From assembly GCA_963773905.1 (NCBI GenBank), contig CAVZDB010000005.1, positions 326,257 through 390,256 of the forward strand: a stretch of DNA of 64,000 bases. The letters are read 5' to 3'. Position 1 is the stretch's first letter. Each line of letters begins with the position of its first letter. The DNA comes from an uncultured Acidobacteriota bacterium. GTDB taxonomy: Bacteria; Acidobacteriota; Thermoanaerobaculia; UBA5066; Gp7-AA6. A program made the position numbers and the translations under genes. Below the pieces are notes generated by a model. The model was not told the DNA's origin, searched no databases, and saw nothing but the letters and a program-made list of their open reading frames with translations. Of the stretch, positions 13,772-48,685 are shown in pieces.

Positions 13772-13787
13772 TGGCACCCCCGTTGCA
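13772..13787 (+). promoter_or_regulatory. Putative sigma-54 promoter for the DUF2231 gene (leaderless geometry)
   Basis: TGGCACCCCCGTTGCA is a perfect consensus match. ATG 13800 follows exactly 12 nt after TTGCA. Confidence 0.7.
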
Positions 13788-13799: not shown

Positions 13800-14297
13800 A
13801 TGCGCAGCCGAGCGGCCGTCGGGAACCATCCGATCCACCCCGCGCTCGTCCCCGTTCCGATCGGTGCGTTCTTCATGGCGTTCGTCGGAGACATCGCCTA
13901 CAGCGGCGGCGCGAAGACCGGCTTCTGGTACGACCTCTCCTACGTCTGCATCGGGGCCGGGATCGCGGCCGCCGTGATCGCGGCCCTGGCCGGTTCCGTC
14001 GACTACTTCTCCGTCAAGATGAGCGGGCAGGCGTTCCGCACGGCCACCTGGCACGGCCTGCTCAACCTCCTCATGGTGGCGCTCTACACTCTCAGCTTCT
14101 TCCTCCGCCGCCACGGCGCGGCGGCGTCCGGTTCGCGCTGGGTGGCTGCGGCCGCGCTGTCCTTCGTGGGCTTCGCCCTGCTCGCGGTCACCGGCTGGCT
14201 GGGGGGGACGCTCGCCTTCGAGCATCGCATCGGCGTCATCGAGCGACTCAACATCGTCAAGCCGGCGCCGCGCAAGAGCGAGCGCGCCGCCTCCTGA
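13800..14297 (+). CDS. DUF2231 domain membrane protein
   Basis: ORF of 165 aa. It has an N-terminal HPIHPALVPVPIGAF motif and four TM helices. Confidence 0.85.
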   Translation: MRSRAAVGNHPIHPALVPVPIGAFFMAFVGDIAYSGGAKTGFWYDLSYVCIGAGIAAAVIAALAGSVDYFSVKMSGQAFRTATWHGLLNLLMVALYTLSFFLRRHGAAASGSRWVAAAALSFVGFALLAVTGWLGGTLAFEHRIGVIERLNIVKPAPRKSERAAS

Positions 14298-15544: not shown

Positions 15545-15560
15545 TGCAAGAGGGGTGCCG
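15545..15560 (-). promoter_or_regulatory. Putative sigma-54 promoter for the DUF1328 gene
   Basis: Minus strand CGGCACCCCTCTTGCA, 32 nt before ATG 15514. Confidence 0.65.
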
Positions 15561-15580: not shown

Positions 15581-15596
15581 GGGCACGAATCTCGCT
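15581..15596 (+). promoter_or_regulatory. Putative sigma-54 promoter for the superoxide dismutase gene
   Basis: GGGCACGAATCTCGCT with correct spacing, 25 nt before ATG 15620. Confidence 0.5.
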
Positions 15597-27172: not shown

Positions 27173-27185
27173 CACCCGAACGAAA

Positions 27186-27410: not shown

Positions 27411-27461
27411 GACAGACTCCTTGTACCTGGGACGGGCTGAATTGCCCGGCACGACTCGCAA

Positions 27462-27477: not shown

Positions 27478-27498
27478 CCGAGAGAGACCCGCGGGCGC

Positions 27499-27514
27499 TG
27501 GCAGGCCGATTGCT
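27499..27514 (+). promoter_or_regulatory. Putative sigma-54 promoter for the metallothionein-ku operon
   Basis: TGGCAGGCCGATTGCT with correct spacing, 26 nt before ATG 27539. Confidence 0.6.
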
Positions 27515-27538
27515 TCGTTCTCTCTTGGGAGGTGCGAA

Positions 27539-27697
27539 ATGCACTGCGAACACACGGGATGTCACTGCTCCGAGGCGACCGTCGAGCTCGAGGGCAAGAA
27601 GTATTGCAGCGAAAAGTGCGCCGAGTCGCGGAACGAGAGCGCGAGCGCATCGTCTGCCCGGTGCGGCTGCGGCCACCCGGACTGCGCGGCGCTCTAG
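27539..27697 (+). CDS. Bacterial metallothionein-like Cys/His-rich protein (SmtA/BmtA type)
   Basis: 52 aa within ORF 27461..27697, starting at ATG 27539 (GGGAGG RBS). Sequence: MHCEHTGCHCSEATVELEGKKYCSEKCAESRNES...ARCGCGHPDCAAL, with 8 Cys and 4 His. GKKYCSEKCA resembles GLYYCSEACA of SmtA. Confidence 0.65.
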   Translation: MHCEHTGCHCSEATVELEGKKYCSEKCAESRNESASASSARCGCGHPDCAAL

Positions 27698-27719
27698 GGC
27701 GCAGATCGGACGAATCCTC

Positions 27720-28553: not shown

Positions 28554-28559
28554 CGGACC

Positions 28560-28722
28560 GGCGCCTCTCCGTCGGGTCGTCGCCGGTCGCGAAGAGCGTC
28601 ACGGCGTGTCCGCCGCGCGTGAGCTCCTCCGTGAGGTACGACACGACGCGCTCGGTTCCCCCGTAGAGCTTCGGGTAGAGCGGCGCGACCTGGGCGATCC
28701 GAAGCCGGGGCTCAGTCGTCAC
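28560..28722 (-). pseudogene. N-terminal stub (about 50 codons) of a GT4-family glycosyltransferase
   Basis: ORF 28477..28722(-). (GTG)TTEPRLRIAQVAPLYPKLYGGTERVVSYLTEELTRGGHAVTLFATGDDPTE is a typical GT4 N-terminus. After that the frame runs antisense into the ku 3' end and loses all similarity. Confidence 0.6.
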
Positions 28723-28795
28723 CGCCTAACCCGACGGATGGCGGCGGACCGGGACGCAACTCGACTCAATCCCTTCGAAAAAGCAGGATCCATGC

Positions 28796-28811
28796 CGGCA
28801 CTCTCTTTGCA
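28796..28811 (+). promoter_or_regulatory. Putative sigma-54 promoter for the LPKTAS-tailed surface protein gene
   Basis: CGGCACTCTCTTTGCA with correct spacing, 53 nt before ATG 28863. Confidence 0.65.
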
Positions 28812-28862
28812 CCCGAAGAAGAGCGGTCCGGCAAGGGGTCGGCCGAAACTGGAGGAGTGTCT

Positions 28863-29732
28863 ATGTCCAAGAAGGTGTCCCAAATCGCACTGGCGGCTCT
28901 CGCGCTGGCCGCCGCCGCCGTCCTGGCCTACGGCCAGACCACGGCCAACAGCGCGACCACTACGACAACGGGGAAATACAAGATCGCGCTCGTCGCGCCC
29001 GTGGAGGGATCGTCGATCGCCGCCGATCAGGTTCGAGTCATTCTGACTCCGAACACGAACGCCATGGGCAACGAGAACACCCAGGTGGACGTGTTCCTGG
29101 ACGATCAGCAGAAAGGCACGCTCAAGACGAGCGAGACCGAGTTTCGCGTCGACGGGGTGGGGCCCGGTCCGCACAAGCTCGTCCTGATCGCACGCAATCC
29201 GGTCACGGATCAGCAGTTCGACCGGCGCGAGATCAACTTCGTCGCGACGGGCACCGGATCGACGACGAGCGGTGTCTCGTCGGTTTCCGAGAATGCGCTC
29301 GGGGCGCACGTGCCGCCGGCCGTGAGCTCGGCCGAGAGGAAGCACACCTACACGGCGAAGGACGGCACGACCTCGACGCAGCCTCAGGTCGCCGAGAACG
29401 AAATGCCGGCGGCCTCCAGCTCCAGTAGCTCCAACAGCTCGAGCGGGTACGCGAACAATCCGCCGGCCTCGAGCAGCTCGAGCACGTACTCCGCCGAGAC
29501 GGCGCCCGCGCCGGCGCCGGCGCCCAACAGCGCGAGCGCCTACTCCAACCGGACTTACAGCAGCCCGAGCGCTCCGAGCGGTGCGATGAGCTCCTCCTCG
29601 TCGAACACGACGGGCTCCGCGGGCGGAACCGACAACGAGCAACTTCCGAAGACGGCGAGCTCGGAAGGCCTGCTCATTCTGGCCGGAGCGGCACTTCTCG
29701 TGACGGGAGCGGTCCTGCGCCGCAACGCCTGA
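28863..29732 (+). CDS. Secreted Ser/Thr-rich protein with a C-terminal LPKTAS-hydrophobic-basic sorting-signal-like tail
   Basis: ORF 28857..29732, with ATG 28863 preferred (GGAGGA RBS). Signal peptide KKVSQIALAALALAAAAVLAYGQ, a structured ~110-aa domain, a long S/T/A/P-rich region, and the ending LPKTASSEGLLILAGAALLVTGAVLRRNA. Confidence 0.75.
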   Translation: MSKKVSQIALAALALAAAAVLAYGQTTANSATTTTTGKYKIALVAPVEGSSIAADQVRVILTPNTNAMGNENTQVDVFLDDQQKGTLKTSETEFRVDGVGPGPHKLVLIARNPVTDQQFDRREINFVATGTGSTTSGVSSVSENALGAHVPPAVSSAERKHTYTAKDGTTSTQPQVAENEMPAASSSSSSNSSSGYANNPPASSSSSTYSAETAPAPAPAPNSASAYSNRTYSSPSAPSGAMSSSSSNTTGSAGGTDNEQLPKTASSEGLLILAGAALLVTGAVLRRNA

Positions 29733-29756
29733 CGCCGCGCTCTCATGACGATCTTC

Positions 29757-29784
29757 GCGCGCCGCGCAAGCGGCGCGCTTTTCG
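29757..29784 (+). terminator. Rho-independent terminator
   Basis: GCGCGCCGC-GCAA-GCGGCGCGC followed by TTTTCG, 25 nt after the stop at 29732. Confidence 0.6.
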
Positions 29785-29945
29785 TCTCAGCGGCGCGCGA
29801 AGAGACGACGGACCCTCGTGTCCCCCCTGTCCTGCCCCCTAGATCCCTTCGGGCAGCTGAGCCAGCGCCAGGTCGCATCGCCTCGAAGGAAGAGCCGACC
29901 GAGAGATTTTCGGCACGCCGGTCCGGCCGCTCGGACACGACATAG

Positions 29946-29977
29946 AAAACGGGCCCCGGCAAGCCGGGGCCCGTTTT
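29946..29977 (-). terminator. Rho-independent terminator (usable on both strands)
   Basis: AAAACGGGCCCCGG-CAAG-CCGGGGCCCGTTTT, 18 nt downstream of the lmo0937-like stop. Confidence 0.7.
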
Positions 29978-29994
29978 CGCCGAGATTTACCGTG

Positions 29995-30144
29995 TCAAAC
30001 GGCGCGTCGGCCTGAGACCAGATTGATGATCAGAACGACGACCGCGATGACGAGAAGGATGTGAATGAACCCGCCGATGGTGTAACCCGAGACCAGCCCG
30101 AGCACCCAGAGGATGAGCAGTATGACGAAGATGGTCCAAAGCAT
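29995..30144 (-). CDS. lmo0937-family small membrane protein
   Basis: This is the last 49 codons of ORF 29995..30198(-), starting at ATG 30144. Sequence: MLWTIFVILLILWVLGLVSGYTIGGFIHILLVIAVVVLIINLVSGRR. Confidence 0.8.
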   Translation of the reverse strand: MLWTIFVILLILWVLGLVSGYTIGGFIHILLVIAVVVLIINLVSGRRAV

Positions 30145-30199
30145 CGTTTTGCCCTGTGTCCTTTCCGGGGTGCCCTCAGCGGCCCCCAGGGGATGCATG

Positions 30200-30246: not shown

Positions 30247-31578
30247 TCAGCGCTTGCGCGCCGCGGGAGACTTCTTGTCGCCCTTCGAGGCGGAGGCCTT
30301 TGCGCTCCCGCGCGCGGGCCTCTCGCGGCGCTGGGGCAGGAGGCTCTCGAGCACCTCGGGCTGGATGGTCTCGCCCTCCGTCATCACGTAGGCGCGATGC
30401 ACCACGTTGCGGAGCTCGCGGACATTCCCGGGCCAGTCGTAGGAATCGAGCATCTGGAGCGCGTCGGGCGACCAGGCCCCGACGCCGGCCTTCTCCTGGT
30501 CCTCGATCTGGCGGCGGAAATGCTCCGCGAGGAGCGGGATGTCCTCGCGCCGCTCGGCCAGCGTCGGCAGGACGATCGGGAAGACGTTCAGCCGGTAGTA
30601 GAGGTCCTCGCGGAGCTTTCCCTCCTTGATGGCCTCCCGCGGATCCCGATTGGTCGCCGAGACGAGCCGGACGTCCACGCGCAGGTCCTGCGTCCCGCCG
30701 ACGCGACGCAGCGTCCTCGCCTCGAGCACACGAAGCAGCTTGACCTGGAGCTCGGGACCCATCTCGGTGATCTCGTCGAGAAACATCGTCCCGCCGTTGG
30801 CCTCCTCGAAGTAGCCCACGCGCCGCTTCTCCGCGCCCGTGAAGGACCCGCGCTCGTGACCGAAGAGCTCGCTCTCGATCAGCGTGGGCGAGATCGCGCC
30901 GCAGTTGAACGCGACGAACGGGGCGCCGGAGCGCCGCGAGAGGCGGTGCAGGGTGCGCGCGACGACCTCCTTGCCGGTGCCGCTCGCGCCGGTGATCAGG
31001 ATGGGAGCGTTCGAGCGCGCGACCCGGCGGATCACGTCGAAGATCTTCATCATGGGCTCGGAGCGGCCGATGAGCTCTCCGAGCTTTCCGGTCTCCTGCA
31101 GCTCCGCCCGGAGGGTCTGCACCTCCGACTCCAGCCGCCGCTTCGCGTTCAGCCGCTGGAAGACCACCTCGAGCTGCGCCGGGCGCAGCGGCTTCAGAAG
31201 GTAGTCCGAGATCCCGGCGCGCAGCGCCTCGACGGCGGAGTCGAGGGAGGCCTGGCCGGTGATGACGATGCCGTCGCGGTCGGGGTTCGACTCGCTCGCC
31301 GCGCGGAAGACCTCGATGCCGTCGCCGTCGGGCAGGTGGACGTCAACCACCAGCACCTCCGGCTGAAACTCCTCGATCGCCCGCATGGCCTCTCCCGCGG
31401 TCCCGACGCACTTGGTCTGGCCGCCGAACTCGCGGATCGCGATGTCGAGCCCCTTGCGGACAGCGACGTCGTCCTCGACGATGAGCACCTTCACGCCGGG
31501 CGCCGGCAGCGCGCCGGAGGGCTCGGACGGCTCCTTCCGCGTGCGGGTCTCCCCGTTCTTCGCGGGGGCCGCCGTCAT
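30247..31578 (-). CDS. Sigma-54-dependent activator: REC + AAA+ domains with no C-terminal HTH DNA-binding domain
   Basis: ORF of 443 aa. REC: VLIVEDDVAVRKGL...VLVVDVHLPDGDG...LLKP. AAA+: ITGASGTGKEV (Walker A), ELFGHERGSFTGA (GAFTGA-type loop), GGTMFLDEI (Walker B), VRLVSATN, REDLYYRLNV, WPGNVRELRNVV. After the AAA+ module only about 40 basic low-complexity residues remain. Confidence 0.9.
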   Translation of the reverse strand: MTAAPAKNGETRTRKEPSEPSGALPAPGVKVLIVEDDVAVRKGLDIAIREFGGQTKCVGTAGEAMRAIEEFQPEVLVVDVHLPDGDGIEVFRAASESNPDRDGIVITGQASLDSAVEALRAGISDYLLKPLRPAQLEVVFQRLNAKRRLESEVQTLRAELQETGKLGELIGRSEPMMKIFDVIRRVARSNAPILITGASGTGKEVVARTLHRLSRRSGAPFVAFNCGAISPTLIESELFGHERGSFTGAEKRRVGYFEEANGGTMFLDEITEMGPELQVKLLRVLEARTLRRVGGTQDLRVDVRLVSATNRDPREAIKEGKLREDLYYRLNVFPIVLPTLAERREDIPLLAEHFRRQIEDQEKAGVGAWSPDALQMLDSYDWPGNVRELRNVVHRAYVMTEGETIQPEVLESLLPQRRERPARGSAKASASKGDKKSPAARKR

Positions 31579-39591: not shown

Positions 39592-41133
39592 TCACGGGGC
39601 CGCGGGCGGGCCTTTCTCGCGAGCTCCGCTGTCCTCTCGAGAGGTCTGCGCGATGGCCGCGCTCTCCTGCGCGTACCAGTTGCGCGGAGCGAGCAGGTGC
39701 ACGGTCGCGCTCCCGTCGTGCGTGTGGACACCAACCCTCAGAAGCCCCGTCTCGACGAGGAACACGCCGCGCTCTCGTCCGGAACGGCGCTCGTACTCGC
39801 CAAGGATGTGGAACTTCCCGCCCGCCGCCTCGAGGTCGTGAACGCGCGTGCGCGCCGGCGCGATCTGGACGTCGGCGGAGGCCGTCAGTCCCTCGAGCGT
39901 GAGAAGAGCGTGCGTCCACTTCGGCAGCCCGACTCCCAGCGCGGCGAGCAGAGGCCGTGCGTCCCGGCACTCGATCGCGACTCTCGCGTCGAGCCCGTCG
40001 CGGATGTGCGCCGGCGTGAGGTTGAACTTGCCCCACCACCCGCGTGTGTCCTCGGCGCCCGCGGCCGCCACGTCGGAGAGGTGCAGGGAGCTGCCGGTGA
40101 GATCGATCGCGGAGGACTCCAGGTCCCAACGCGGCACGCCCAGCTCCGCGTGAAGATCGCCGGACAGCTCGACTCCCGGCCGCCGCACCCTCGCGCCGTT
40201 CGACGCGAGGCGCACGCGGCCCGAGGCGACGCCGTGCTCGACCGAGCCCGCGATCGACAGGACGCCCTTTCCTCCAGAGAAGCGCGGCTCGGGTTCGCGG
40301 CGAAGGAAGTAGTTCGCGAAATCGAGGCTCGGAACGGGACCATGGAGATCGAGCTGCGCGTCGAGGTTGCGCCAGACCGCGTCGCCCTGGAGGCGGCGCG
40401 GATCCCACTCCGCGATCGCCGCGCGGATCCGGCCCTCGAGCCCCGCCACGAGCGGCCGGCCTCCGAGGCCCAGGGCGCCTTCGAGGAAGTCGATCGCCGC
40501 GGGGCCGACCCGGGCGACCTGGCCCGGCTTGAGCAGGAACCGGCCGTGAAGCCGCGCCGAACCCTCGAAGCGATACGCGTCGAACCAGATCTCGTGGAAG
40601 CGGTCGATGGCGATGCCGCTCACGTCGATCGTCCACGGCCGTCCCTCCGCGGACGGCGGCGGCGCGGGCTCGGGTTTGCGCAGCGGAGGATCCGTGAATC
40701 CCTCGATCGCCGGAAGGGCGCCGGCGGGAGGACGGCTCGGGTCCTTCGGATCGAGTTTTTGACGCAGGCGGAACGTCAGGCCGCTCCCCGCGACGCGCTC
40801 GACCCGAAAGGTGCGCGCGAGCAGCGCCGGCAGCGAGAAGTCGGCGCGGGCCTCTGCGAGCCGGATCTCCCATTCCACGTTCGCGTCGCTGCCTCGGATG
40901 CGCAGGTTCTTGAGCCGAACGACGCCGGGCCACCGGGAGACAGCCTCATCCCACTCGAGGAGCGTCGATTCGGGGTGGGTGTTGATCCAGGAGCGCAGCC
41001 GGGGACCCGAGAGGAGCCAGCGCGTGGCGGCGGCGTAGCCGCCGAAGGCCGCCGCAACGAGCACAATCGACACGATCAGGACCGTCAGGGTGCGACGTCG
41101 GACTCGGTGACGGGTTCGCGCGGAGCGCTTCAC
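39592..41133 (-). CDS. Membrane-anchored hypothetical protein (possibly AsmA-like)
   Basis: ORF of 513 aa with a GTG start. It has a basic N-terminus, one TM helix (LTVLIVSIVLVAAAFGGYAA) and a long beta-rich extracytoplasmic region. Confidence 0.7.
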   Translation of the reverse strand: MKRSARTRHRVRRRTLTVLIVSIVLVAAAFGGYAAATRWLLSGPRLRSWINTHPESTLLEWDEAVSRWPGVVRLKNLRIRGSDANVEWEIRLAEARADFSLPALLARTFRVERVAGSGLTFRLRQKLDPKDPSRPPAGALPAIEGFTDPPLRKPEPAPPPSAEGRPWTIDVSGIAIDRFHEIWFDAYRFEGSARLHGRFLLKPGQVARVGPAAIDFLEGALGLGGRPLVAGLEGRIRAAIAEWDPRRLQGDAVWRNLDAQLDLHGPVPSLDFANYFLRREPEPRFSGGKGVLSIAGSVEHGVASGRVRLASNGARVRRPGVELSGDLHAELGVPRWDLESSAIDLTGSSLHLSDVAAAGAEDTRGWWGKFNLTPAHIRDGLDARVAIECRDARPLLAALGVGLPKWTHALLTLEGLTASADVQIAPARTRVHDLEAAGGKFHILGEYERRSGRERGVFLVETGLLRVGVHTHDGSATVHLLAPRNWYAQESAAIAQTSREDSGAREKGPPAAP

Positions 41134-41164
41134 CCCCCACGGGCACGCAAGGAGCGCGCCAACG

Positions 41165-42330: not shown

Positions 42331-43983
42331 TTACCGCCGCTGCAGGCGGGTGATCTCTTCGTCGAAGCCGGGCAGAATCGCGCGGAAGAACGCGTTCTCG
42401 ATCAGGCGTCCGATGACTTGCCACGTGCTCGAGCTGGGGTTCTCCACCGGCCCGGAGATGTCGGCCTCCGTCGCGACCTCTTTGCGCCCGTTCTCGAGCA
42501 GACTGGCCACTCCGCCGACGAGCTTTTCGTACAGCTTCCGAAAGAGACTCTTCTCGGCGTCCTGTCTCTGGTCGTAAACCTTCATGTCCTGGAAGAGGGG
42601 CTTGACGTAGCCGTCGATCCGGCCCCGCGCCACCTTCAGCTCGGTGTAAAACGAAAATTTCCCCGCGACGACGTCGAACTTCCCGTAGGAGCGGAAGAGG
42701 TCGTTCATCTTCTCCATCGGCGTGTTCTCGATCTGTCCCTTGAGGTCGAAGTCCGGCCCGTTCGCGTCGGCTCGGAAGGTCGCGGCGGCGGACGCTTCGC
42801 CGGCGCCCATGAACTTCCCCTTCAGCGAAACCTTCGCCGGGCCGGCCGCGAAGCCGTTGGAGTAGTTCTCGACGCGAAGGGTCACGGGCGCGAGGAAGAC
42901 GCGGTAGCCGGGCGTCTTCGCCTTGTTGACGAAGCCGACGTCGCAGTTCTCGAGCGCGAGGTGATCGACGCGCAGGACGGTGTCCGGATCGCGCGTTACC
43001 TCGCGCGCCGCCTGGCCGACCTGCTGCCGCCGGACCCGCTCCACCGCGGCGGTCGGCGCGGTGTGGACGTAATCGAGCCGCATGTCGCGGACCGTCAGAT
43101 CCTGCAAGTGGGCGAACCGCACCCGGGGGCCGTACTCGACCTCCCCCGCGAGCTGGAGGACGCCGTGGCGAATGTCGAGGTTCGACCGCGCGATGATCGG
43201 ATGGAAGGAGTCGAGCGGAATGCCGCTGAGATTCAGGAGGACGTGGATCCCCGTGAACGGCTCCGCCAGGAAGTCCGCGTGTCCATCGACCGTCGCGTGA
43301 CCGGTCTCGAACACGACCGCCTCGGCGTGGATCGGCGAGGGGTAGGACCGGTCCTTCGAGTGAATGTTGCGGATGTTGTTGGCGGTCAGCTGGAGGTGCG
43401 TGAGGTGAAGCGGCCGCTTCGGGTCCTCGTCGACGTAGGTCACCTCCCCATCCCGCACCCGAAACAGGTTGATCTTGAGCGGATAGATCTGTTCGACCGC
43501 CCGCTGCCAGCCTTTCTGTTTCACGGGAGTCTCATCCGAGGCCTCCTGGCGGAGCTGGGCGAGGTTGACGTACGCCACCGGCCGATCCAGGAGGAAGTCC
43601 GCGACCAGCCGCAGCGCGAGAAGCTCCCGCCACTGCACGGTGGCCTGAAGCCGTGGGAAGACCGCGATCGGCGGCTCGGGGTTGGCGTTCTGGCGCAGCG
43701 TGAGATTCACGAGCGTCAGCCCGAAGTCGAACGGCCGCAGGCGCAGCTTGCCGATCCGGACGCTGTAGCCCTCGAGGCTGGCGTTCATGCGCCTCTCCAT
43801 CGAACGGCGCATCGGCTCCGCGGCGATCGGAGGGAGAACAACCAGCAGCAGGAGAATGCCCGCGAGAATTCCCGCGGTCCAGACGGCGGCGCGGCGCCAT
43901 CCGCGAGGCCGCTGCCAATGCCGGGGTCGCGGCTTCGGGTGGCGGGCCGGCGAGGCGGCGCGAGGTCTCGGATTCGCAGACAC
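42331..43983 (-). CDS. DUF748-domain (AsmA-like clan) protein
   Basis: ORF of 550 aa. GTG 43983 is the only possible start before the TM helix (AAVWTAGILAGILLLLVVLPP). The repeated beta-rich architecture and C-terminal ...GRIDGYVKPLFQDMKVYD... are typical of DUF748. Confidence 0.75.
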   Translation of the reverse strand: MSANPRPRAASPARHPKPRPRHWQRPRGWRRAAVWTAGILAGILLLLVVLPPIAAEPMRRSMERRMNASLEGYSVRIGKLRLRPFDFGLTLVNLTLRQNANPEPPIAVFPRLQATVQWRELLALRLVADFLLDRPVAYVNLAQLRQEASDETPVKQKGWQRAVEQIYPLKINLFRVRDGEVTYVDEDPKRPLHLTHLQLTANNIRNIHSKDRSYPSPIHAEAVVFETGHATVDGHADFLAEPFTGIHVLLNLSGIPLDSFHPIIARSNLDIRHGVLQLAGEVEYGPRVRFAHLQDLTVRDMRLDYVHTAPTAAVERVRRQQVGQAAREVTRDPDTVLRVDHLALENCDVGFVNKAKTPGYRVFLAPVTLRVENYSNGFAAGPAKVSLKGKFMGAGEASAAATFRADANGPDFDLKGQIENTPMEKMNDLFRSYGKFDVVAGKFSFYTELKVARGRIDGYVKPLFQDMKVYDQRQDAEKSLFRKLYEKLVGGVASLLENGRKEVATEADISGPVENPSSSTWQVIGRLIENAFFRAILPGFDEEITRLQRR

Positions 43984-43995
43984 GCGGCTACGTCT

Positions 43996-44011
43996 CGCAA
44001 TCGACGTGCCA
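43996..44011 (-). promoter_or_regulatory. Putative sigma-54 promoter for the DUF748 operon (leaderless geometry)
   Basis: Minus strand TGGCACGTCGATTGCG. GTG 43983 follows exactly 12 nt after TTGCG. Confidence 0.7.
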
Positions 44012-44037
44012 GAGGCGACGCCTGGTCGAGCCCGCGG

Positions 44038-44433
44038 CTAGTGTCTCGCGGAGGAGACGCTCCGGGGCCGTGTGGCAGCCGATTCGCGGGGGAGGAGGCG
44101 TTCGATCGAACGCTCGAGCTCGCGAAACTCGAACGGTTTCACCAGGAAATCGTCGGCGCCGAGCAGCCGCGTGCGTGCGAGCCGGTCCGCGTGGGCCGAC
44201 ATGACGATGACCCCGCCGGCGAATCCGCCCTCGCGCAGGCGGACCAGGGCGCTCTCGCCGTCGACGAGCGGCATCAGGAGGTCGAGAATCACGAGGTCGA
44301 CGGGGCCCTCGCCCAACCGCTCGAGCGCCTCCTCGCCATTGCGCGCGGTCACGACATCGTAGCGGCGCGACAGCAGGGTCTCCATCCCCTCGAGGATTCC
44401 GAGATCGTCGTCGGCGATCAGGATGCGTCTCAT
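44038..44433 (-). CDS. Single-domain response regulator
   Basis: This is the last 131 codons of ORF 44038..45642(-), starting at ATG 44433. Motifs: MRRILIADDDLGILEGM...LVILDLLMPLVDG...LVKP. There is an ATGA-type overlap with the kinase stop. Confidence 0.85.
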   Translation of the reverse strand: MRRILIADDDLGILEGMETLLSRRYDVVTARNGEEALERLGEGPVDLVILDLLMPLVDGESALVRLREGGFAGGVIVMSAHADRLARTRLLGADDFLVKPFEFRELERSIERLLPRESAATRPRSVSSARH

Positions 44434-45506
44434 GCGGGCTCCAGTACGCTCCGCGGCAGCGTGATCGTGATCTGCGTCCCGCGATCCGGCTCGCTCGCGA
44501 CGGCGAGGTCGCCGCCGTGCCGCTCGAAGACGTCTCGCGCCGCCGCGAGCCCGAGGCCGAGGCCCGGGAAGTGGCGCCGGGGAACGTTGCTCGCCCGAAA
44601 GAACCGACGGCCGACCGACTCCAGATCCTCCCTCGGAATCCCGACGCCCTGATCTCGGATCGTGACGCGGTGCGGCCCTTCGTCGGCTCGAAGCTCGACC
44701 TCGACGTCCCCCCCGCGGGGCGAGAACTTGAGCGCGTTGTCGAGCAGCCCGTGGAAGGCCTGTTCGAGACTGCGGCTCTCTCCGTCGACGTCGGCCTGCT
44801 GGGGGCCGCGAAACGTCAGACGATGACGGACACGGCCCGGAGACTCGCGCAGCTCGTCGCAACGCAGGGCGACCAGGCGGCGCAGCAGTCCCGCGAGGTT
44901 CAGCCGCACCTTGTGGAGCGAGAGGCCGTGCCGATCTTCCGTCCGCAGCAGGTCGCTGATCAATCGACCCAGACGGTCGACCTGGACGCCGAGGCGGTCG
45001 AACATCTCGGGAGTGCAGACCTCTCCGGCGGCCGCCGCGCGGCGCATCACTTCCGCGTGCATCTTCACGGCCTGGAGCGGAGTGCGCAGCTCGTGCGCCA
45101 TCATCCGCAGCGCGGCCTCGCGGGACTCCTCCCCCCGTCGGCGGTCGTGAATGTCCAGACACGCGCCGACGAAGCCGTGGACCGCATCCGCCTCGTGGAT
45201 GGGAACGCCGCGCTCCAGAACCCAGCGATAGAGGCCGTCGTGGCGCCGCAGCCGGTACTCCACCTCGAAGGGCGCGAGGCCGCGCAGCGGATCGAGGAAC
45301 AGTTCCGCCCGGCGCCGCAGATCGTCGGGATGGACTCCCTGCATCCAGCCCTCGCCGAGCTCCTCCTCGCGGCTCCGCCCGGTGAATCGGAGCCACGTGT
45401 CGTTGAAGTAGTCGCGGTGGGCCTTCGCGCCGGAGCGCCAGATCAGCAGCGGAGCGTGGTCGAGAAGCGCGGCGGAGTCGGTGGTCGGGAGCCATTCCGG
45501 CAGCAT
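44430..45506 (-). CDS. PAS-domain sensor histidine kinase
   Basis: ORF 44430..45722(-), starting at ATG 45506. PAS: LLIWRSGAKAHRDYFNDTWLRFTGRS...GWMQGVHPDD...YRLRRHDGLYRWV. H-box MAHELRTPL, N-box LLDNALKFSP, then DQGVGI and GLGLGLAA. Confidence 0.85.
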   Translation of the reverse strand: MLPEWLPTTDSAALLDHAPLLIWRSGAKAHRDYFNDTWLRFTGRSREEELGEGWMQGVHPDDLRRRAELFLDPLRGLAPFEVEYRLRRHDGLYRWVLERGVPIHEADAVHGFVGACLDIHDRRRGEESREAALRMMAHELRTPLQAVKMHAEVMRRAAAAGEVCTPEMFDRLGVQVDRLGRLISDLLRTEDRHGLSLHKVRLNLAGLLRRLVALRCDELRESPGRVRHRLTFRGPQQADVDGESRSLEQAFHGLLDNALKFSPRGGDVEVELRADEGPHRVTIRDQGVGIPREDLESVGRRFFRASNVPRRHFPGLGLGLAAARDVFERHGGDLAVASEPDRGTQITITLPRSVLEPA

Positions 45507-45508
45507 CG

Positions 45509-46057
45509 TCAGGCTCCCCCGGCGCGCTCTCTCGGCGGGCCCGCCCCGCCAGAGACTCCCGACGCGCTGGCCGTACCGGCGAAGCGCCTCCGCCGCAGAA
45601 CCCGCAGGCTCGCCCGCAGGCGCTCGCGGGCCCAGGAGGCAAACAGACGCTCGAACAGCCGCAGGCCCACCCAGACCGTCGGATCGACGTACGCCCCGAG
45701 GGCTCTGCGCTCGCGGAGCCAACCGGCCGCGCCGGCGGCCGGAATCTCGTGCACGGCGAGTCCCGGAACCGATGAGGGCCGAGTCGCGCGGCGCGCGAGG
45801 AGCGGCGCCATCAGGATGCTCGAATGTCCGCCGGCCTCGTTCGGGATTCCGTAACGCGACATCGTGACGAGCTCACGCGCCTCGTACCCGAGCAGCGCGA
45901 GGAGCCGATTGACGGCAACGAAGTCGCGCCCGTCGCCGACGCCGGTGACGGTCACCGCGGGAAGCACGATCGTCTGGTCGGCGGTCAGGGTGCGCAGGAG
46001 GGCAATCTCTCCATCGCACGTCAGCCCCACGACGTGCAGCGTGTCTCGGAAATCCAA
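45509..46057 (-). CDS. Hypothetical protein (faint Nudix-fold resemblance, no Nudix box)
   Basis: This is the C-terminal 182 codons of ORF 45509..48598(-). The TTG 46057 start has GGAGGTGG upstream and a sigma-54 promoter 28 nt before it. The stop abuts the kinase start. Confidence 0.45.
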   Translation of the reverse strand: MDFRDTLHVVGLTCDGEIALLRTLTADQTIVLPAVTVTGVGDGRDFVAVNRLLALLGYEARELVTMSRYGIPNEAGGHSSILMAPLLARRATRPSSVPGLAVHEIPAAGAAGWLRERRALGAYVDPTVWVGLRLFERLFASWARERLRASLRVLRRRRFAGTASASGVSGGAGPPRERAGGA

Positions 46058-46083
46058 GAGACACCACCTCCAAGCCTTCGAGG

Positions 46084-46099
46084 AGCAAACGGCTTGCCA
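46084..46099 (-). promoter_or_regulatory. Putative sigma-54 promoter for the hypothetical-kinase-regulator operon
   Basis: Minus strand TGGCAAGCCGTTTGCT with correct spacing. Confidence 0.6.
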
Positions 46100-46128
46100 G
46101 CCGCCTCCCCGGTCGGGGCCGCGGAGGG

Positions 46129-47325
46129 TCAGCGGTTCTCGTGGAACGCGACGCGTTCCGAGGGGTGCTCCTCGCCCTGGAGGACCGCGTCGATCGCCCG
46201 GTCCTCGCCCGACGCGGCCGCCTCGGCGAGCTCCGCATGGTCGGCGACGACCTCGTTGCTCAGGTAATCGGAGAGCCAGATCTTCTCGATGATCGGATAG
46301 GCCGCGAAGAGCGGCAGGATGAGCACCGCTCCCACGACGCCGTAGAGGCTGCCTCCCACGATGAGCGCGAGGAGCACGACGAGCGGTGACAGACGGAGCC
46401 TGCGTCCGTACACCCGCGGAACGATGACGTAGTTCTCGAGCCCGTGGTACAGCAGGTAGAGGACCACGACGGCCGCCGCCGCGACCGGCGAAACCGTCAG
46501 CGCGAATAATGCCGCCGGGATCGTCGAGATGAAGACGCCCAGGATCGGCAGCACGTCGCAGATCGCCGCGAGCACGGCGAGCGGCAACGCGGAAGGCACG
46601 TGCAGGACCGTGAGCACCACGAACGCGAAACCTCCGTAGAGCAGCGACGTGAGCAGCTGGCCCTGCACGTACGCCATGACGACTTCGGAGACGGCCGGAA
46701 CGGTCTCGGCCATCTTCTGCCGGTGGCGGCGCGGCACGTACGCGAGGAGCCACGCGTAGGTGCGTTTCCCGTCGAGCAGCAGGTACAGCGAGAGGACCAG
46801 GACGAGGACCGCCGCGAGCGAGGCCTCGAGGACGAGCTGGCCCCACGCCAGCGGACGCTTGAGGGAGTGCGCGACCTCGGGCGAGGACGGCAGGTCGAAG
46901 ATTTGGGCCATCAGCTTCGCGATCAGCGGGTGATCGGGATTGAGGCGGGCCTGCGCGCTCCGCCGATACGCGCCGAGGTTCGCGGCGAGCTCCATCGTCT
47001 GGGTGGCGAGCGGCGGCAGGACCAGGAACACGAATAGCGCGAGGACGGCGAGCATCCCGCACGCGACGAGGCCGACCGACAGCGAACGCGAGACGCCCCG
47101 CCGCTCCAGGCGATCGACGATCGGCCATAGCGTCACCGCCAGCACGAGGGCGACGAACAGCACGAGGAGACTCGGGACGAGCCGCAGCAGCGCCCAGACG
47201 CAAGCCGCCGCGATCAGCACCTTGAGGATCGTCGAGACCGGCAGCTGCAGGCGGACCTCCGCCGGGTCCGGCCCGACAGCGGGCTCGCGGCCGTCGCGAG
47301 GCGCGGAAAGCTTGACGAACTCCAC
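46129..47325 (-). CDS. AI-2E family transporter (PerM-like); start uncertain (GTG 47325 proposed)
   Basis: ORF 46129..47445(-). It has about 8 TM helices and the motifs ...YVQGQLLTSLLYGGFAFVVL...ICDVLPILGVFIS...LENYVIVPRVYG.... ATG 47445 would lie inside the divergent gene. Confidence 0.8.
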   Translation of the reverse strand: MEFVKLSAPRDGREPAVGPDPAEVRLQLPVSTILKVLIAAACVWALLRLVPSLLVLFVALVLAVTLWPIVDRLERRGVSRSLSVGLVACGMLAVLALFVFLVLPPLATQTMELAANLGAYRRSAQARLNPDHPLIAKLMAQIFDLPSSPEVAHSLKRPLAWGQLVLEASLAAVLVLVLSLYLLLDGKRTYAWLLAYVPRRHRQKMAETVPAVSEVVMAYVQGQLLTSLLYGGFAFVVLTVLHVPSALPLAVLAAICDVLPILGVFISTIPAALFALTVSPVAAAAVVVLYLLYHGLENYVIVPRVYGRRLRLSPLVVLLALIVGGSLYGVVGAVLILPLFAAYPIIEKIWLSDYLSNEVVADHAELAEAAASGEDRAIDAVLQGEEHPSERVAFHENR

Positions 47326-47337
47326 GACGGTGCGATG

Positions 47338-47353
47338 CGCAAGAAGTGTGCCG
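47338..47353 (-). promoter_or_regulatory. Putative sigma-54 promoter for the AI-2E transporter gene (leaderless geometry)
   Basis: Minus strand CGGCACACTTCTTGCG. GTG 47325 follows exactly 12 nt after TTGCG. Confidence 0.6.
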
Positions 47354-47376
47354 CGCGCACGCGCGCGGGTCCAATG

Positions 47377-47392
47377 TGGCACGCGGGTTGCG
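47377..47392 (+). promoter_or_regulatory. Putative sigma-54 promoter for the DUF6600-like gene
   Basis: TGGCACGCGGGTTGCG with correct spacing, 26 nt before ATG 47417. Confidence 0.65.
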
Positions 47393-47416
47393 TTCCCTGC
47401 ACTGTGGGAGTTGAAA

Positions 47417-48685
47417 ATGAGAAAGCACACGGGAATTTTGTTCACCGTTCTCGCCGCCGCACTGGTGTGGACCGCGAGCGCGGCCGCCGCCCCGGTGGAG
47501 GTCAGCGTGTCCGTCTTCCATGATCAGCTCGCGCCTCACGGACGGTGGGTCGCGGCGGGCTCCTACGGCAACTGCTGGGTGCCCTCCGGAGTCGCCCGGG
47601 GGTGGGAGCCGTACGTCGACGGCCAGTGGGTCTACTCCGATTACGGATGGACCTGGGTCTCCGACGATCCCTGGGGCGACATCCCCTACCACTACGGCAC
47701 CTGGGCGTACGCCGATCCCTACGGCTGGGTCTGGGTCCCCGGAACCGTCTGGGCGCCCGCGTGGGTGACGTGGGCGTACACCGACGACTACGTCGGCTGG
47801 GCGCCCGTGCCGCCGAGCTTCGCCCTCTCCGCCACCGGCTACTTCGGCTCGCCGGTCGTCGTGACGTCGACGCACTACGTCTTCGTCCCGACGCGGCAAT
47901 TCGTCGGCGTGCGCGTCGCGACCGTGAGGGTCCCGGCGCAGCAGAGCGTCACGATCCTGCCGCACGCCGTGAAGACCACGCGCTTCGACGTCTCCCAGGG
48001 CGTCGTCCGCATCGCGGGTCCGCCGGAGAGCCGGGTCGCGCGCGTCGTCGGCCATCCCATCCAGCACGTCGCCGCGAATAGCCTCCGGGCCCGGCCCACC
48101 ACCCTGGCGGCAGGCGGGGTGACCGCGACGAAGAGCGTTCGTGTCGTCGCGCCGGAAACGGAGCGCGCCAAGATCGCCGCGGCGCCGGCGAGGAACGAGC
48201 CGGCCAGGAACGCGAAACACCAGGCCGAGACGAGGACCGCGCAGAAGGCCGAGAAGAATCCGAAGAAGCCGGCGCGTCCGGCGGCCGAGTCGAGTGCGCG
48301 CAACGAGAGCGCGACGGCGCACGCGCACGGGACCGAGCGGGCCGAGCCGAAGCCCAAGGCGCGTCCCGAGACCGAGACTCGCCAGGCGAACGTCGCGCAC
48401 ACGCAACAGGCTCCGAAGCCGAAGGCCAAGCCGAAGCCGGAACATCGGGCCGAGCCCGAAAAGCCACAGGCGACGGCACAGTCCGCGCACGAGGCCCAGC
48501 CGCGCGAGTCGGCCCAGGCGGAGCAGCGGGCGAAGGCCGAGAAGCCGCAGCCCGAGGCGCATCCGCAGAGTGAGACCCGCCAGGCGAACGCCGAGCATTC
48601 GCAGCCGGCTCCCAAGCCGAAGGCCCGGCCGCAGCAGAAGCCGCAGCCGCCGAAGGAGAAGGAGAAGCCCCCGAGTCAGGACTGA
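47417..48685 (+). CDS. Secreted Trp/Tyr/Gly-repeat (DUF6600-like) protein with a Lys/Pro/Ala/Glu-rich repetitive tail
   Basis: In the frame of ORF 46940..48685, starting at ATG 47417, with a signal peptide. WVAAGSYGNCWVPSGVARGWEPYVDGQWVYSDYGWTWVSDDPWGDIPYHYGTWAYADPYGWVWVPGTVWAPAWVTW. The tail carries two ETRQAN..H.Q.APKPKA.P copies. Confidence 0.8.
   Translation: MRKHTGILFTVLAAALVWTASAAAAPVEVSVSVFHDQLAPHGRWVAAGSYGNCWVPSGVARGWEPYVDGQWVYSDYGWTWVSDDPWGDIPYHYGTWAYADPYGWVWVPGTVWAPAWVTWAYTDDYVGWAPVPPSFALSATGYFGSPVVVTSTHYVFVPTRQFVGVRVATVRVPAQQSVTILPHAVKTTRFDVSQGVVRIAGPPESRVARVVGHPIQHVAANSLRARPTTLAAGGVTATKSVRVVAPETERAKIAAAPARNEPARNAKHQAETRTAQKAEKNPKKPARPAAESSARNESATAHAHGTERAEPKPKARPETETRQANVAHTQQAPKPKAKPKPEHRAEPEKPQATAQSAHEAQPRESAQAEQRAKAEKPQPEAHPQSETRQANAEHSQPAPKPKARPQQKPQPPKEKEKPPSQD

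What the first reader, a model, noticed from the sequence alone, without database searches (positions are those of the whole stretch)
43981..44011. Three sigma-54 promoters have the start codon exactly 12 nt after TTGC(A/G), implying leaderless mRNAs
In three unrelated genes the start codon follows the -12 element at an identical distance:
- DUF2231: TGGCACCCCCGTTGCA-tttcgacacggc-ATG (13772-13802, +)
- DUF748 operon: TGGCACGTCGATTGCG-agacgtagccgc-GTG (44011-43981, -)
- AI-2E: CGGCACACTTCTTGCG-catcgcaccgtc-GTG (47353-47323, -)

With the conserved C at -12, the start codon begins at about +3, so there is no room for a Shine-Dalgarno sequence.

For DUF2231 and DUF748, no other in-frame ATG, GTG or TTG exists before the conserved N-terminal motif or TM helix. 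The geometry is therefore not an annotation choice.

A second class of sites has the C-to-start distance at 25-32 nt, with a clear SD (SOD, metallothionein, DUF6600-like, hemerythrin, DUF1328).

I am not aware of leaderless translation from sigma-54 promoters being described as a recurring design.
Basis: partly seen in the sequence, partly recalled or inferred. Interest (0 to 1): 0.7.

Follow-up and report, generated by a model that had tools for sequence, protein, structure and literature searches.

The report
Sigma-54 promoters abutting start codons

Summary
The three quoted strings are at the stated coordinates, each with 13 nt between the -12 C and an ATG/GTG. The composite pattern occurs 5 times in the window against 0.03 expected. 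The window is from a Thermoanaerobaculia-like acidobacterium.

Comparative data support the interpretation.
- DUF748: 16 de-duplicated orthologous loci have the start at C+13 to C+16 (mode 14) with ATG or GTG only and no usable Shine-Dalgarno (SD) sequence. None lies at 17-23. 32 lie at 24 or more, mostly with an SD.
- DUF2231: offsets are 14, 14, 14, 14, 15, 17 without an SD and 22, 24, 27, 61 with one, all ahead of the same conserved N-terminus.
- AI-2E: geometry is kept in two relatives, one with GTG replaced by ATG at the same position.
- In the SD class the SD core starts no earlier than C+14, with one G-run exception, which is where the other class has its start codon.
- Two distant DUF748 loci have a strong terminator just upstream of the promoter.

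No 5' end has been mapped, so "leaderless" (a 0-3 nt leader) remains an inference, at about 0.75 confidence. Seven literature searches found no report of sigma-54-driven leaderless mRNAs. I rate it a new variant of known kinds.

The parts
13772..13786 (+). Sigma-54 -24/-12 promoter of DUF2231 (TGGCACCCCCGTTGC, 10/10); -12 C at 13786
   Evidence: Conserved 10/10 in L012, L095, L096, L097, L013 and L009.
13800..14297 (+). DUF2231 membrane protein CDS; ATG at C+14, no SD
   Evidence: Pfam PF09990, 3.5e-30, profile starts at residue 10. N-terminus MRSRAAVGNHPIHP conserved across homologs.
43997..44011 (-). Sigma-54 promoter of the DUF748 gene (TGGCACGTCGATTGC, 10/10); -12 C at 43997
   Evidence: Identical element in L001 and L002; conserved in 49 of 76 de-duplicated orthologous loci.
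42331..43983 (-). DUF748 protein CDS (550 aa, basic N-tail plus TM anchor); GTG at C+14, no SD
   Evidence: Pfam PF05359, 2.1e-33, profile from residue 22. No other in-frame start before the TM helix. Ortholog alignment A5.
47339..47353 (-). Sigma-54 promoter of the AI-2E transporter gene (CGGCACACTTCTTGC, 9/10); -12 C at 47339
   Evidence: Conserved as CGGCATGCTTCTTGC with the same 13-nt spacer length in L001 and L002.
46129..47325 (-). AI-2E family transporter CDS; GTG at C+14, no SD (alternative in-frame GTG at codon 36 not fully excluded)
   Evidence: Pfam PF01594, 2.3e-53, profile from residue 34. L002 has ATG at the same position. By my count on the sequence, 33 of the first 36 codons end in G or C.
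41147..41161 (-). Fourth sigma-54-like site (TGGCGCGCTCCTTGC, 9/10) at the gene 41/gene 40 junction; possible internal promoter
   Evidence: Conserved with offset 14 in L001 despite a ~45-nt insertion upstream; absent in L002.
39592..41133 (-). Gene 40 CDS (513 aa, no Pfam hit, N-terminal TM anchor); GTG at C+14
   Evidence: The L070 homolog has a sigma-54 site at offset 19 without an SD.
47377..47391 (+). Comparator, SD class: sigma-54 promoter of DUF6600 (10/10), back-to-back with the AI-2E promoter 23 nt away; GGGAG, ATG at C+26 (47417)
15581..15595 (+). Comparator, SD class: sigma-54-like promoter of Fe/Mn SOD; GGAGG starts at C+14, ATG at C+25 (15620)
15546..15560 (-). Comparator, SD class: sigma-54 promoter of DUF1328; GGGAGG, ATG at C+32 (15514)
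46085..46099 (-). Comparator, SD class: sigma-54 promoter of gene 45; GGAGG starts at C+14, TTG at C+28 (46057)
27499..27513 (+). Comparator, SD class: sigma-54 promoter of a 51-aa Cys/His-rich (metallothionein-like) ORF (27539...) upstream of Ku; GGGAGG, ATG at C+26
30247..31578 (-). Candidate activator of the regulon: NtrC-type bEBP (REC plus AAA+ sigma-54 interaction domain, GSFTGA loop) with no C-terminal HTH
   Evidence: Pfam PF00158, 5.5e-70; domains end at residue 421 of 443. Sequence. An 84%-identical ortholog in L009 is 414 aa and also lacks an HTH.

Best explanation
These are genuine sigma-54 (-24/-12) promoters of a stress/dormancy-type regulon. They sit directly against the coding sequence, with the C of the -12 GC 13-16 nt (mode 14) before the first base of an ATG or GTG.

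Sigma-54 RNA polymerase starts about 11-14 nt after that C, so the mRNA would begin at the start codon or 1-3 nt before it. It would carry no Shine-Dalgarno (SD) sequence and would have to be translated by SD-independent, 5'-end-dependent (leaderless) initiation.

The same regulon and the same gene families also use a second layout: a minimal leader of about 11-20 nt in which GGAGG begins right at the 5' end (C+14 onward). Lineages have switched between the two layouts by indels of roughly 10-13 nt.

Shown here: the motif, its enrichment, its conservation, the fixed spacer length with divergent spacer sequence, the correct start codons, the bimodal offsets, and the absence of an SD.

Inferred: the position of the 5' end, sigma-54 and activator dependence in vivo, and the mode of translation initiation.
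For: Motif and geometry are present and non-random.

DUF748 orthologs. 16 de-duplicated loci plus the window fall at offsets 13-16. There are ten at 14, four at 15, and one each at 13 and 16. None falls at 17-23, and 32 fall at 24-82. By N-terminal sequence (my grouping) the short class spans about seven sub-clades, whose spacers differ in sequence but keep their length. Close relatives with the same promoter differ in layout: L049 is 15 with no SD, while L046, L029 and L066 are 24-28 with an SD.

DUF2231, all checked on DNA. Offset 14 in the window, L012, L095 and L097. Offset 15 in L096 and 17 in L011. Offsets 22, 24, 27 and 61 come with GGAGG-type SDs in L008, L009, L013 and L014. All precede the same conserved Met.

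AI-2E. Spacer length is conserved in L001 and L002, with GTG replaced by ATG in L002.

Global histogram. There is a peak at 14 and the decoys are flat. Other families appear at short offsets: LigD-like 13, pyrophosphatase-like 16, a second AI-2E 19, and gene 40 at 14.

SD onset in the SD class is 14 or later in 21 of 22 cases. That is the same earliest position as the start codon in the no-SD class. The conserved block of a neighbouring sigma-54-driven non-coding element starts at C+10 to C+12. Both place the 5' end near C+11 to C+14.

C. jejuni dRNA-seq puts sigma-54 TSSs 8-13 nt after the motif end (PMC3847290).

Start codons in the short class are ATG or GTG only, 0 TTG of 16. This matches the RTG rule for leaderless initiation in mycobacteria (PMC4633059; count).

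Terminators lie immediately upstream of the promoter in L005 and L007. There is no sigma-70-type match near the sites.

A bEBP with a sigma-54 interaction domain is encoded in the window.
Against: No transcript 5' end, proteomic N-terminus or sigma-54 dependence has been measured for any of these genes.

The rpoN gene itself is not in the window.

In the window the DUF748 gene follows a co-directional histidine kinase and response regulator pair by only 54 nt, with no terminator detected. Read-through transcripts may also exist there.

For AI-2E, the in-frame GTG at codon 36 would still give a plausible transporter.

By eye, about 7 of roughly 25 short-class spacers contain a G-rich run within 0-2 nt of the start codon (for example aagggga-ATG, ggaggc-ATG). 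If transcripts began further upstream these could be very close-spaced SD remnants.

The TTG depletion is not significant alone (one-sided p = 0.074). The 17-23 gap test is post hoc, and three other loci sit at 17 or 19 (L011, L061, L070).

The orthologs are not phylogenetically independent.

Leaderless GUG initiation is inefficient in E. coli (PMC4633059) and untested in Acidobacteriota.
Confidence: 0.75

Rival explanations
1. The genes are mainly expressed on longer transcripts that start further upstream, by read-through from the preceding operon or from an unrecognised promoter. The start codons would then be used by SD-independent internal initiation. On this view the sigma-54 element is a secondary or unrelated feature and its spacing to the start codon is incidental.
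For: The window's DUF748 gene is co-directional with, and 54 nt after, a histidine kinase and response regulator pair, with no terminator detected. Gene 40's site lies inside an operon junction. 27 of 76 DUF748 orthologs have no detectable sigma-54 site, so other promoters can serve this family.
Against: A length-conserved but sequence-divergent 13-14 nt spacer only makes sense relative to a start site fixed by the promoter. L005 and L007 have strong terminators about 23 nt before the promoter. DUF2231 and AI-2E lie in divergent intergenic regions of 137 and 91 nt with no sigma-70-type match. The offsets are bimodal, with an SD appearing only at 22-24 nt or more.
Confidence: 0.1
2. Transcription does start at the sigma-54 promoter but a few nucleotides earlier than assumed, about C+8 to C+10. 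The mRNAs would then carry 4-8 nt leaders and be 'very short-leadered' rather than leaderless. Initiation might be helped by the G-rich bases next to the start codon.
For: Mapped sigma-54 TSS distances vary by several nt in C. jejuni (PMC3847290). Loci with offsets 17 and 19 and no SD exist (L011, L061, L070). G-rich runs abut the start codon in about 7 short-class spacers.
Against: The SD core in the SD class starts no earlier than C+14 in 21 of 22 cases. It should be able to start earlier if transcripts began at C+8. An SD at 0-2 nt spacing is not functional in characterised systems (my knowledge). In practice this rival differs from the main explanation only in degree, since leaders of 5 nt or less are conventionally called leaderless (definition quoted in PMC12754779).
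Confidence: 0.1
3. The start codons are mis-assigned. Translation really begins at a downstream or non-canonical codon, so the 14-nt coincidence concerns a triplet that is not used.
For: AI-2E has an in-frame GTG at codon 36, close to where the Pfam profile begins at residue 34. The N-terminal 30-50 residues of DUF748 and AI-2E are poorly conserved, low-complexity sequence.
Against: The DUF2231 N-terminus is conserved from the Met in about 40 of 45 homologs, in both SD-led and SD-less loci. DUF748 has no alternative start before the TM helix in at least 9 independent loci. GTG/ATG interchange occurs at the fixed position in AI-2E and within DUF748 sub-clades such as L055 GTG against L070 ATG. 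By my count on the sequence, 33 of the first 36 AI-2E codons end in G or C.
Confidence: 0.03
4. The shared spacing is chance plus shared ancestry, with no functional constraint.
For: Many loci are related, and the 834 kb sample was fetched around DUF748 and DUF2231 genes, so it is not an unbiased genome sample.
Against: The composite pattern occurs 5 times against 0.03 expected in the window alone. Decoy motifs show no peak. Three to six unrelated gene families share the offset. Spacer sequences diverge while their length is held, and indels are common elsewhere in the same intergenic regions.
Confidence: 0.02

Closest known systems
Leaderless genes with a sigma-70-type -10 box adjacent to the ORF (Actinobacteria, Deinococcus-Thermus; Zheng et al. 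2011 PMC3160421; Zhong et al. 2025 PMC12340547; Shell et al. 2015 PMC4633059)
   Same: The promoter's downstream element sits a fixed, short distance from the start codon. There is no SD. The start codon is ATG or GTG. The layout is conserved between orthologs, and gene callers tend to mis-place such starts.
   Different: Here the promoter is the -24/-12 sigma-54 type, which needs an ATP-dependent activator, not a TANNNT -10 box. No -10-like element or sigma-70 match is present. The phylum is Acidobacteriota. Zheng et al. state that their survey could only detect Pribnow-type promoters, so this class would have been invisible to it.
Canonical sigma-54 promoters with leadered, SD-containing mRNAs (for example glnAp2, nifH; -24/-12 consensus as used in PMC11704786 and PMC2831329)
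   Same: The TGGCAC-N5-TTGC consensus with GG and GC 10 nt apart. A bEBP with a sigma-54 interaction domain is encoded nearby. The regulon is stress- or environment-responsive.
   Different: Textbook examples have 5' UTRs of tens of nucleotides and upstream activator sites (my knowledge). Here the start codon is at C+14. Two promoters can sit back-to-back 23 nt apart. The candidate activator lacks a DNA-binding domain.
Leaderless transcripts from alternative sigma-70-family promoters (for example S. coelicolor whiH/sigma-WhiG and sigJ, cited in PMC3160421; M. xanthus pexR from a sigma-A promoter, PMC12754779)
   Same: These show that leaderless architecture is not restricted to housekeeping promoters. 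In the Myxococcus case it can occur in loci that also use sigma-54.
   Different: Those are single-gene cases from sigma-70-family factors. In the Myxococcus locus the sigma-54 promoter drives the leadered ahpC, not the leaderless gene.

Membership tests
Sigma-54 (RpoN) dependent -24/-12 promoter | GG and GC doublets exactly 10 nt apart within a TGGCAC-N5-TTGC-like consensus, oriented toward a gene | tested here: met
   10/10, 10/10 and 9/10 matches at the three sites. 15 window hits against 1.94 expected.
Sigma-54 (RpoN) dependent -24/-12 promoter | The element is conserved in orthologous loci while flanking intergenic sequence diverges | tested here: met
   DUF748: 49 of 76 de-duplicated loci. 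DUF2231: 10 loci. AI-2E: L001 and L002.
Sigma-54 (RpoN) dependent -24/-12 promoter | The genome encodes the machinery: a bEBP with an AAA+ sigma-54 interaction domain and GAFTGA-type loop, and rpoN | tested here: inconclusive
   A bEBP is present in the window (PF00158, 5.5e-70, GSFTGA loop).
Sigma-54 (RpoN) dependent -24/-12 promoter | Transcription in vivo or in vitro depends on sigma-54 and an activator, starting about 12 nt after the GC | not testable with these tools
   No transcript data are available for these organisms.
Leaderless mRNA | The primary 5' end coincides with, or lies 5 nt or less upstream of, the start codon | not testable with these tools
   Inferred only, from -24/-12 geometry, from C. 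jejuni sigma-54 TSS distances (PMC3847290), from the SD-onset boundary at C+14, and from the onset of conservation of the neighbouring non-coding element at C+10 to C+12.
Leaderless mRNA | No Shine-Dalgarno sequence at functional spacing upstream of the start codon | tested here: met
   No GGAG/GAGG/AGGA at 4-15 nt spacing within the predicted transcript at the three window sites or in the 16 short-class DUF748 loci. SD-led paralogous layouts in the same regulon show that the organism does use GGAGG.
Leaderless mRNA | The 5'-proximal start codon is AUG or GUG, not UUG or CUG (rule established in mycobacteria, PMC4633059) | tested here: met
   Short class: 8 ATG, 8 GTG, 0 TTG of 16. Long class: 6 TTG of 32. 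One-sided Fisher p = 0.074. The direction is as predicted, but the test is weak on its own.
Leaderless mRNA | The assigned start codon is the true one | tested here: met
   DUF2231: conserved N-terminus. DUF748: unique start before the TM helix. AI-2E: supported but not exclusive.
Sigma-70-type '-10 box adjacent to ORF' leaderless genes | [quoted passage not shown] | tested here: not met
   No sigma-70-type match in 43700-47700 or 13000-14400. By inspection, the 13-nt spacers contain no TANNNT.

The most novel reading that the evidence does not exclude
Leaderless output from sigma-54 promoters is a deliberate tier of a dormancy/stress programme in Acidobacteriota. A single activator without a DNA-binding domain fires many roughly 30-bp promoter cassettes that need no upstream activator site. 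Within that regulon the leader type sets the translational mode. Abundant soluble protectants (SOD, hemerythrin, metallothionein-like) get a 5'-terminal SD. Membrane proteins (DUF2231, DUF748, AI-2E, gene 40) are leaderless and are translated by undissociated 70S or hibernation-state ribosomes. Transcriptional and translational selectivity would then be coupled under stress.
Probability: 0.15. Interest if true: 0.8.

Novelty: new variant of a known kind. Interest (0 to 1): 0.65.

Why it matters
Leaderless mRNAs have so far been tied to sigma-70-family promoters, where a -10 box sits next to the ORF, and genome-wide surveys were built to detect only that signal (PMC3160421). A conserved sigma-54 version would matter in four ways.

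1. It would show that the activator-dependent, tightly off-by-default promoter class can also drive UTR-less genes.
2. It would imply robust leaderless initiation, including at GUG, in Acidobacteriota. This is a major soil phylum for which I found no TSS-mapping or leaderless-translation study in the searches run here.
3. It offers a natural series of orthologs that toggle between an SD at the 5' end and no leader at all. That is useful for studying how the two initiation modes interconvert.
4. It has a practical consequence. Public gene calls for these genes are visibly wrong: DUF2231 is called at 197-224 aa by reading through the promoter and overlapping the divergent CBS gene. A promoter-aware start rule would fix them.

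It also provides a sequence-only way to calibrate sigma-54 start sites in uncultured lineages.

Tried and rejected
**Gene calling and start rules**
- A naive GC3-based gene caller picked antisense shadow frames. I replaced it with a self-trained codon-usage caller. That caller still fragmented the LigD Prim-Pol gene. tblastn shows the gene is intact in one frame at 16903-17868 (-), so no pseudogene is claimed.
- The automatic rule "first in-frame start at least 8 nt after C" mis-assigned some sites. It took a TTG inside the DUF6600 SD (the true ATG is at 26). L038, L057 and L091 first scored 9-12 but have a second ATG at 24-27. Two of these show a GGAGGA-type SD by inspection. I moved all three to the SD class. 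L022 (12) and L061 (645) were left out as ambiguous.

**Weak or null tests**
- TTG depletion in the short class is not significant on its own (p = 0.074).
- The Rfam scan of the whole window at gathering threshold found nothing.
- The candidate sRNA shows conserved hairpins but only one covarying pair.
- The scan for sigma-70-type promoters and terminators near the three window sites found none. The only two terminator-like hits overlap the sRNA promoter and are at chance level.

**Literature**
- Barrios et al. 1999, looked up under the PMC id I recalled, was not found, and three searches failed on syntax.
- Papers that mention both leaderless mRNAs and sigma-54 do not link them: S. meliloti, B. 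japonicum, C. jejuni, Leptospira, C. pneumoniae and M. xanthus PexR.

**Not done**
- I ran no further search on AI-2E, because the verdict would not change.
- Window genes 50-60 (about 50.6-64 kb) were not Pfam-scanned.
Full report
**1. What is in the window**

- TGGCACCCCCGTTGC-atttcgacacggc-ATG at 13772-13802 (+)
- TGGCACGTCGATTGC-gagacgtagccgc-GTG at 44011-43981 (-)
- CGGCACACTTCTTGC-gcatcgcaccgtc-GTG at 47353-47323 (-)

In each, 13 nt separate the C of the -12 GC from the start codon. I call this offset 14: the first base of the codon is at C+14.

The window is 69% G+C. A self-trained codon-usage gene map and Pfam identify the three downstream genes.
- DUF2231: 165 aa, profile from residue 10.
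- DUF748: 550 aa, profile from residue 22.
- AI-2E transporter: 398 aa, profile from residue 34.

The sigma-54 consensus TGGCAC-N5-TTGC with up to 1 mismatch occurs 15 times against 1.94 expected. The composite promoter + 13 nt + RTG occurs 5 times against 0.03 expected. One of the five is a fourth offset-14 site ahead of gene 40, at 41161-41131 (-).

**2. Start codons**

DUF2231 has no in-frame ATG/GTG/TTG upstream of 13800, and the next one lies beyond the conserved HPxHP motif. Among 45 homologs, about 40 begin with or contain M-[RK]-S-[RK]-A-A-I-G-N-HPxHP. Most are 163-165 aa.

DUF748 has no in-frame start between GTG 43983 and the TM helix. All aligned orthologs have the same architecture, a basic Pro-rich tail of 35-55 aa followed by a TM helix.

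AI-2E has a possible alternative GTG at codon 36. Against that alternative, 33 of the first 36 codons end in G or C, by my count on the sequence. In addition, the relative L002 has ATG where the window and L001 have GTG, at the identical position and in frame.

**3. Organism and synteny**

The single genome-collection scan returned seven DUF748 loci from Thermoanaerobaculia and other Acidobacteriota MAGs. L001 and L002 are syntenic with window positions 30-53 kb.

The window encodes a stress/dormancy-type gene set:
- PNPOx-like, CBS, DUF2231, low-affinity iron permease, BON
- DUF1328, Fe/Mn SOD, LigD Prim-Pol, hemerythrin
- trehalase, OtsA and OtsB
- a 51-aa Cys/His-rich peptide, Ku, DUF5670, ferritin

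Many of these genes sit behind sigma-54-type sites. The same neighbourhood recurs in distant loci.

An NtrC-type activator is encoded at 30247-31578 (-). It has REC and AAA+ sigma-54 interaction domains and a GSFTGA loop. Its Pfam domains end at residue 421 of 443, and the remaining tail is a Lys/Ala/Ser-rich stretch with no HTH.

**4. Comparative test, DUF748**

In the genome loci the promoter is conserved.
- The GTG is at offset 14 in L001, L002 and L007 and at 15 in L005, although L005 and L007 are only about 50% identical in protein.
- L003 has TTG at 25 after GAGGGGGGG.
- L006 has ATG at 47 after GAGG.

A metagenome scan with the ortholog alignment added 80 loci. After de-duplication, 49 of 76 loci have a sigma-54 site of at least 8/10 upstream.

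After curating three mis-assignments, the offsets are as follows.

| Class | n | Offsets | Start codons |
|---|---|---|---|
| Short | 16 | 13, 14 x10, 15 x4, 16 | 8 ATG, 8 GTG, 0 TTG |
| Gap | 0 | nothing at 17-23 | none |
| Long | 32 | 24-82 | 20 ATG, 6 GTG, 6 TTG |

The long class mostly carries GGAGG, GAGG or GGAAAGG.

By N-terminal sequence (my grouping), the short class spans about seven sub-clades. Their spacers differ in sequence but not in length. Start codons interchange within sub-clades, for example L055 GTG against L070 ATG. In at least nine loci no other in-frame start precedes the TM helix.

Close relatives with essentially the same promoter differ only by an indel of roughly 10-13 nt that carries the SD. 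L049 has offset 15 and no SD, whereas L046, L029 and L066 have 24-28 with an SD.

**5. Comparative test, DUF2231**

All offsets were read on DNA.

| Offset | Loci | SD |
|---|---|---|
| 14 | window, L012, L095, L097 | none |
| 15 | L096 | none |
| 17 | L011 | none within the predicted transcript |
| 22 | L008 | GGTGGAGG (weak 8/10 site) |
| 24 | L009/L010 | GGGAGG |
| 27 | L013 | GGAGG |
| 61 | L014 | AAGGAGG |

The conserved Met is the same in both layouts. Public gene calls for L095, L096 and L097 are over-extended to 197-224 aa. They read through the promoter (which translates as "GTPVAF...") and overlap the divergent CBS gene.

**6. Generality and controls**

Across the 834 kb held (window plus loci), 153 sites match at least 9/10. 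Eighty-seven have a coding ORF start within 120 nt. The offset histogram peaks at 14 (13 sites), with 4 at 15 and 3 at 16, and a broad second mode at 24-34. Four decoy motifs give 12-93 sites and no peak.

Besides DUF748, DUF2231 and AI-2E, short offsets without an SD occur before several other genes.
- a LigD-like ORF (L077, 13)
- a pyrophosphatase-like ORF (L070, 16)
- a second AI-2E (L061, 19)
- gene 40 (window and L001, 14)
- the gene 40 homolog in L070 (19)

The sample is biased toward DUF748 and DUF2231 neighbourhoods, so this is not an unbiased genome-wide test.

**7. Where does the transcript start?**

No 5' ends are available. Three lines of inference agree.
- The motif is by definition centred at -24/-12 (PMC11704786, PMC2831329). 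In C. jejuni dRNA-seq the sigma-54 motif ...tTGCTt ends 8-13 nt before the mapped TSS, which is roughly C+10 to C+15 (PMC3847290).
- In the SD class the SD core begins at 14 or later in 21 of 22 cases (11; 14 x6; 15 x4; 16 x3; 17; 18 x4; 19 x2; 21). This is the same earliest position as the start codon in the no-SD class, as expected if both must lie inside a transcript that begins at about C+11 to C+14.
- The conserved block of a neighbouring sigma-54-driven non-coding element starts with an invariant GG at C+11/C+12.

In L001, L005 and L007 the bases just before the GTG are pyrimidines (cttc). The G of the GTG is therefore the nearest purine for initiation. The predicted 5' UTR is 0-3 nt.

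**8. Alternative sources of transcript**

L005 and L007 have a 14-bp-stem, T-tailed terminator ending about 23 nt before the -24 element. DUF2231 and AI-2E sit in divergent intergenic regions of 137 and 91 nt. The AI-2E and DUF6600 promoters lie back-to-back 23 nt apart.

No sigma-70-type match occurs near any of the sites. That scan uses an E. coli-type consensus and may miss acidobacterial promoters.

In the window the DUF748 gene follows a histidine kinase and response regulator pair by 54 nt without a detectable terminator. Read-through there cannot be excluded.

**9. Comparison with what is known**

Leaderless genes are known from sigma-70-family promoters, with a TANNNT box about 10 nt before the start.
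- Zheng et al. say their survey detects only such promoters (PMC3160421).
- The B. japonicum dRNA-seq study found an extended -10 motif upstream of leaderless mRNAs (PMC4842269).
- A 2025 study describes "the -10 region adjacent to ORFs" in Deinococcus-Thermus (PMC12340547).
- In mycobacteria a 5'-terminal ATG or GTG, but not TTG or CTG, is necessary and sufficient for leaderless initiation (PMC4633059). The ATG/GTG-only usage in the short class fits this rule, although it is not significant alone (p = 0.074).

Seven searches combining leaderless with sigma-54, sigma54, RpoN, NtrC, enhancer-binding protein or Acidobacteria found no report of sigma-54-driven leaderless mRNAs. The nearest case, M. 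xanthus pexR, is leaderless from a sigma-A promoter. The library lacks most subscription journals, so single-gene precedents may exist.

**10. Verdict**

The 5' end and the mode of initiation remain inferred, at 0.75 confidence.

This is a new variant of two known kinds: sigma-54 promoters and leaderless mRNAs. It recurs across several gene families and many uncultured Acidobacteriota. All four window examples are membrane proteins with basic N-termini, while the SD-led members are mostly small soluble or secreted proteins. Whether that reflects tuning of translation yield is speculation.

Noticed in passing
window 13085-13198 (-); also L011 ~9545-9659 (-), L012 ~3130-3243 (-), L009 ~9825-9940 (-), L013 ~3990-4103 (-): A strongly conserved non-coding element of about 85-90 nt (GGGCAAGGTTCTTTGGAACACTCGAACCGA...GGACCCGCCCCTTCGGGGGCGG.GGTCC). 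It is driven by its own 10/10 sigma-54 promoter (TGGCACTCTTTTTGC), lies divergent from DUF2231 and sits upstream of the PNPOx-like gene. It has two conserved hairpins but only one covarying pair, and no Rfam family matches. It is a candidate sigma-54-dependent sRNA or 5' leader.
   Followed up: partly
window 30247-31578 (-); ortholog in L009 15327-16571 (-): The NtrC-type sigma-54 activator (REC + AAA+, GSFTGA loop) has no C-terminal HTH DNA-binding domain. Its Pfam domains end at residue 421 of 443 and the tail is Lys/Ala/Ser-rich. An activator acting from solution would fit the many compact promoters here, which have no obvious room for upstream activator sites.
   Followed up: partly
window 47339-47391: Two sigma-54 promoters lie back-to-back on opposite strands only 23 nt apart, for AI-2E (-) and DUF6600 (+), within a 91-nt divergent intergenic region. 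Both are conserved in L001 and L002.
   Followed up: partly
window 15581 (+), 15560 (-), 18612 (+), 27499 (+), 46099 (-), 47377 (+) and many loci: The SD-led members of the regulon also have unusually short leaders. The start is at C+25 to C+32, with GGAGG beginning at C+14 to C+19, which is essentially at the predicted 5' end of the mRNA.
   Followed up: yes
L095 3001-3675, L096 2941-3534, L097 3001-3657 (public JGI gene calls); proteins P0002, P0003, P0007, P0009, P0011, P0031: Public gene calls for DUF2231 orthologs are over-extended by 6-59 codons. In the three DNA-checked cases (L095, L096, L097) they read through the sigma-54 promoter ('GTPVAF...M'), and in L095 and L096 they overlap the divergent CBS gene. 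This is a systematic annotation error caused by the missing SD.
   Followed up: yes
window 41131-41161 (-): A fourth offset-14 site (TGGCGCGCTCCTTGC + 13 nt + GTG) lies between gene 41 and gene 40, downstream of DUF748. It is conserved in L001 despite a ~45-nt insertion upstream but absent in L002. It may be an internal promoter.
   Followed up: partly
window ~11480-30150 and loci L009, L011-L013, L095-L097: A recurrent neighbourhood of stress or desiccation-type genes, many behind sigma-54 sites. It includes ferritin/rubrerythrin, PNPOx-like, CBS, DUF2231, iron permease, BON, DUF1328, SOD, Ku, LigD, trehalose synthesis and DUF5670. Sigma-54 seems to serve here as a general stress or dormancy sigma factor.
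   Followed up: partly
L023, L034-L036, L045, L047, L048, L051-L054, L058 and others (24 loci, plus 3 at contig edges): About a third of the DUF748 orthologs have no detectable sigma-54 site upstream. The family is therefore not universally under this control. I did not examine what replaces the promoter.
   Followed up: no
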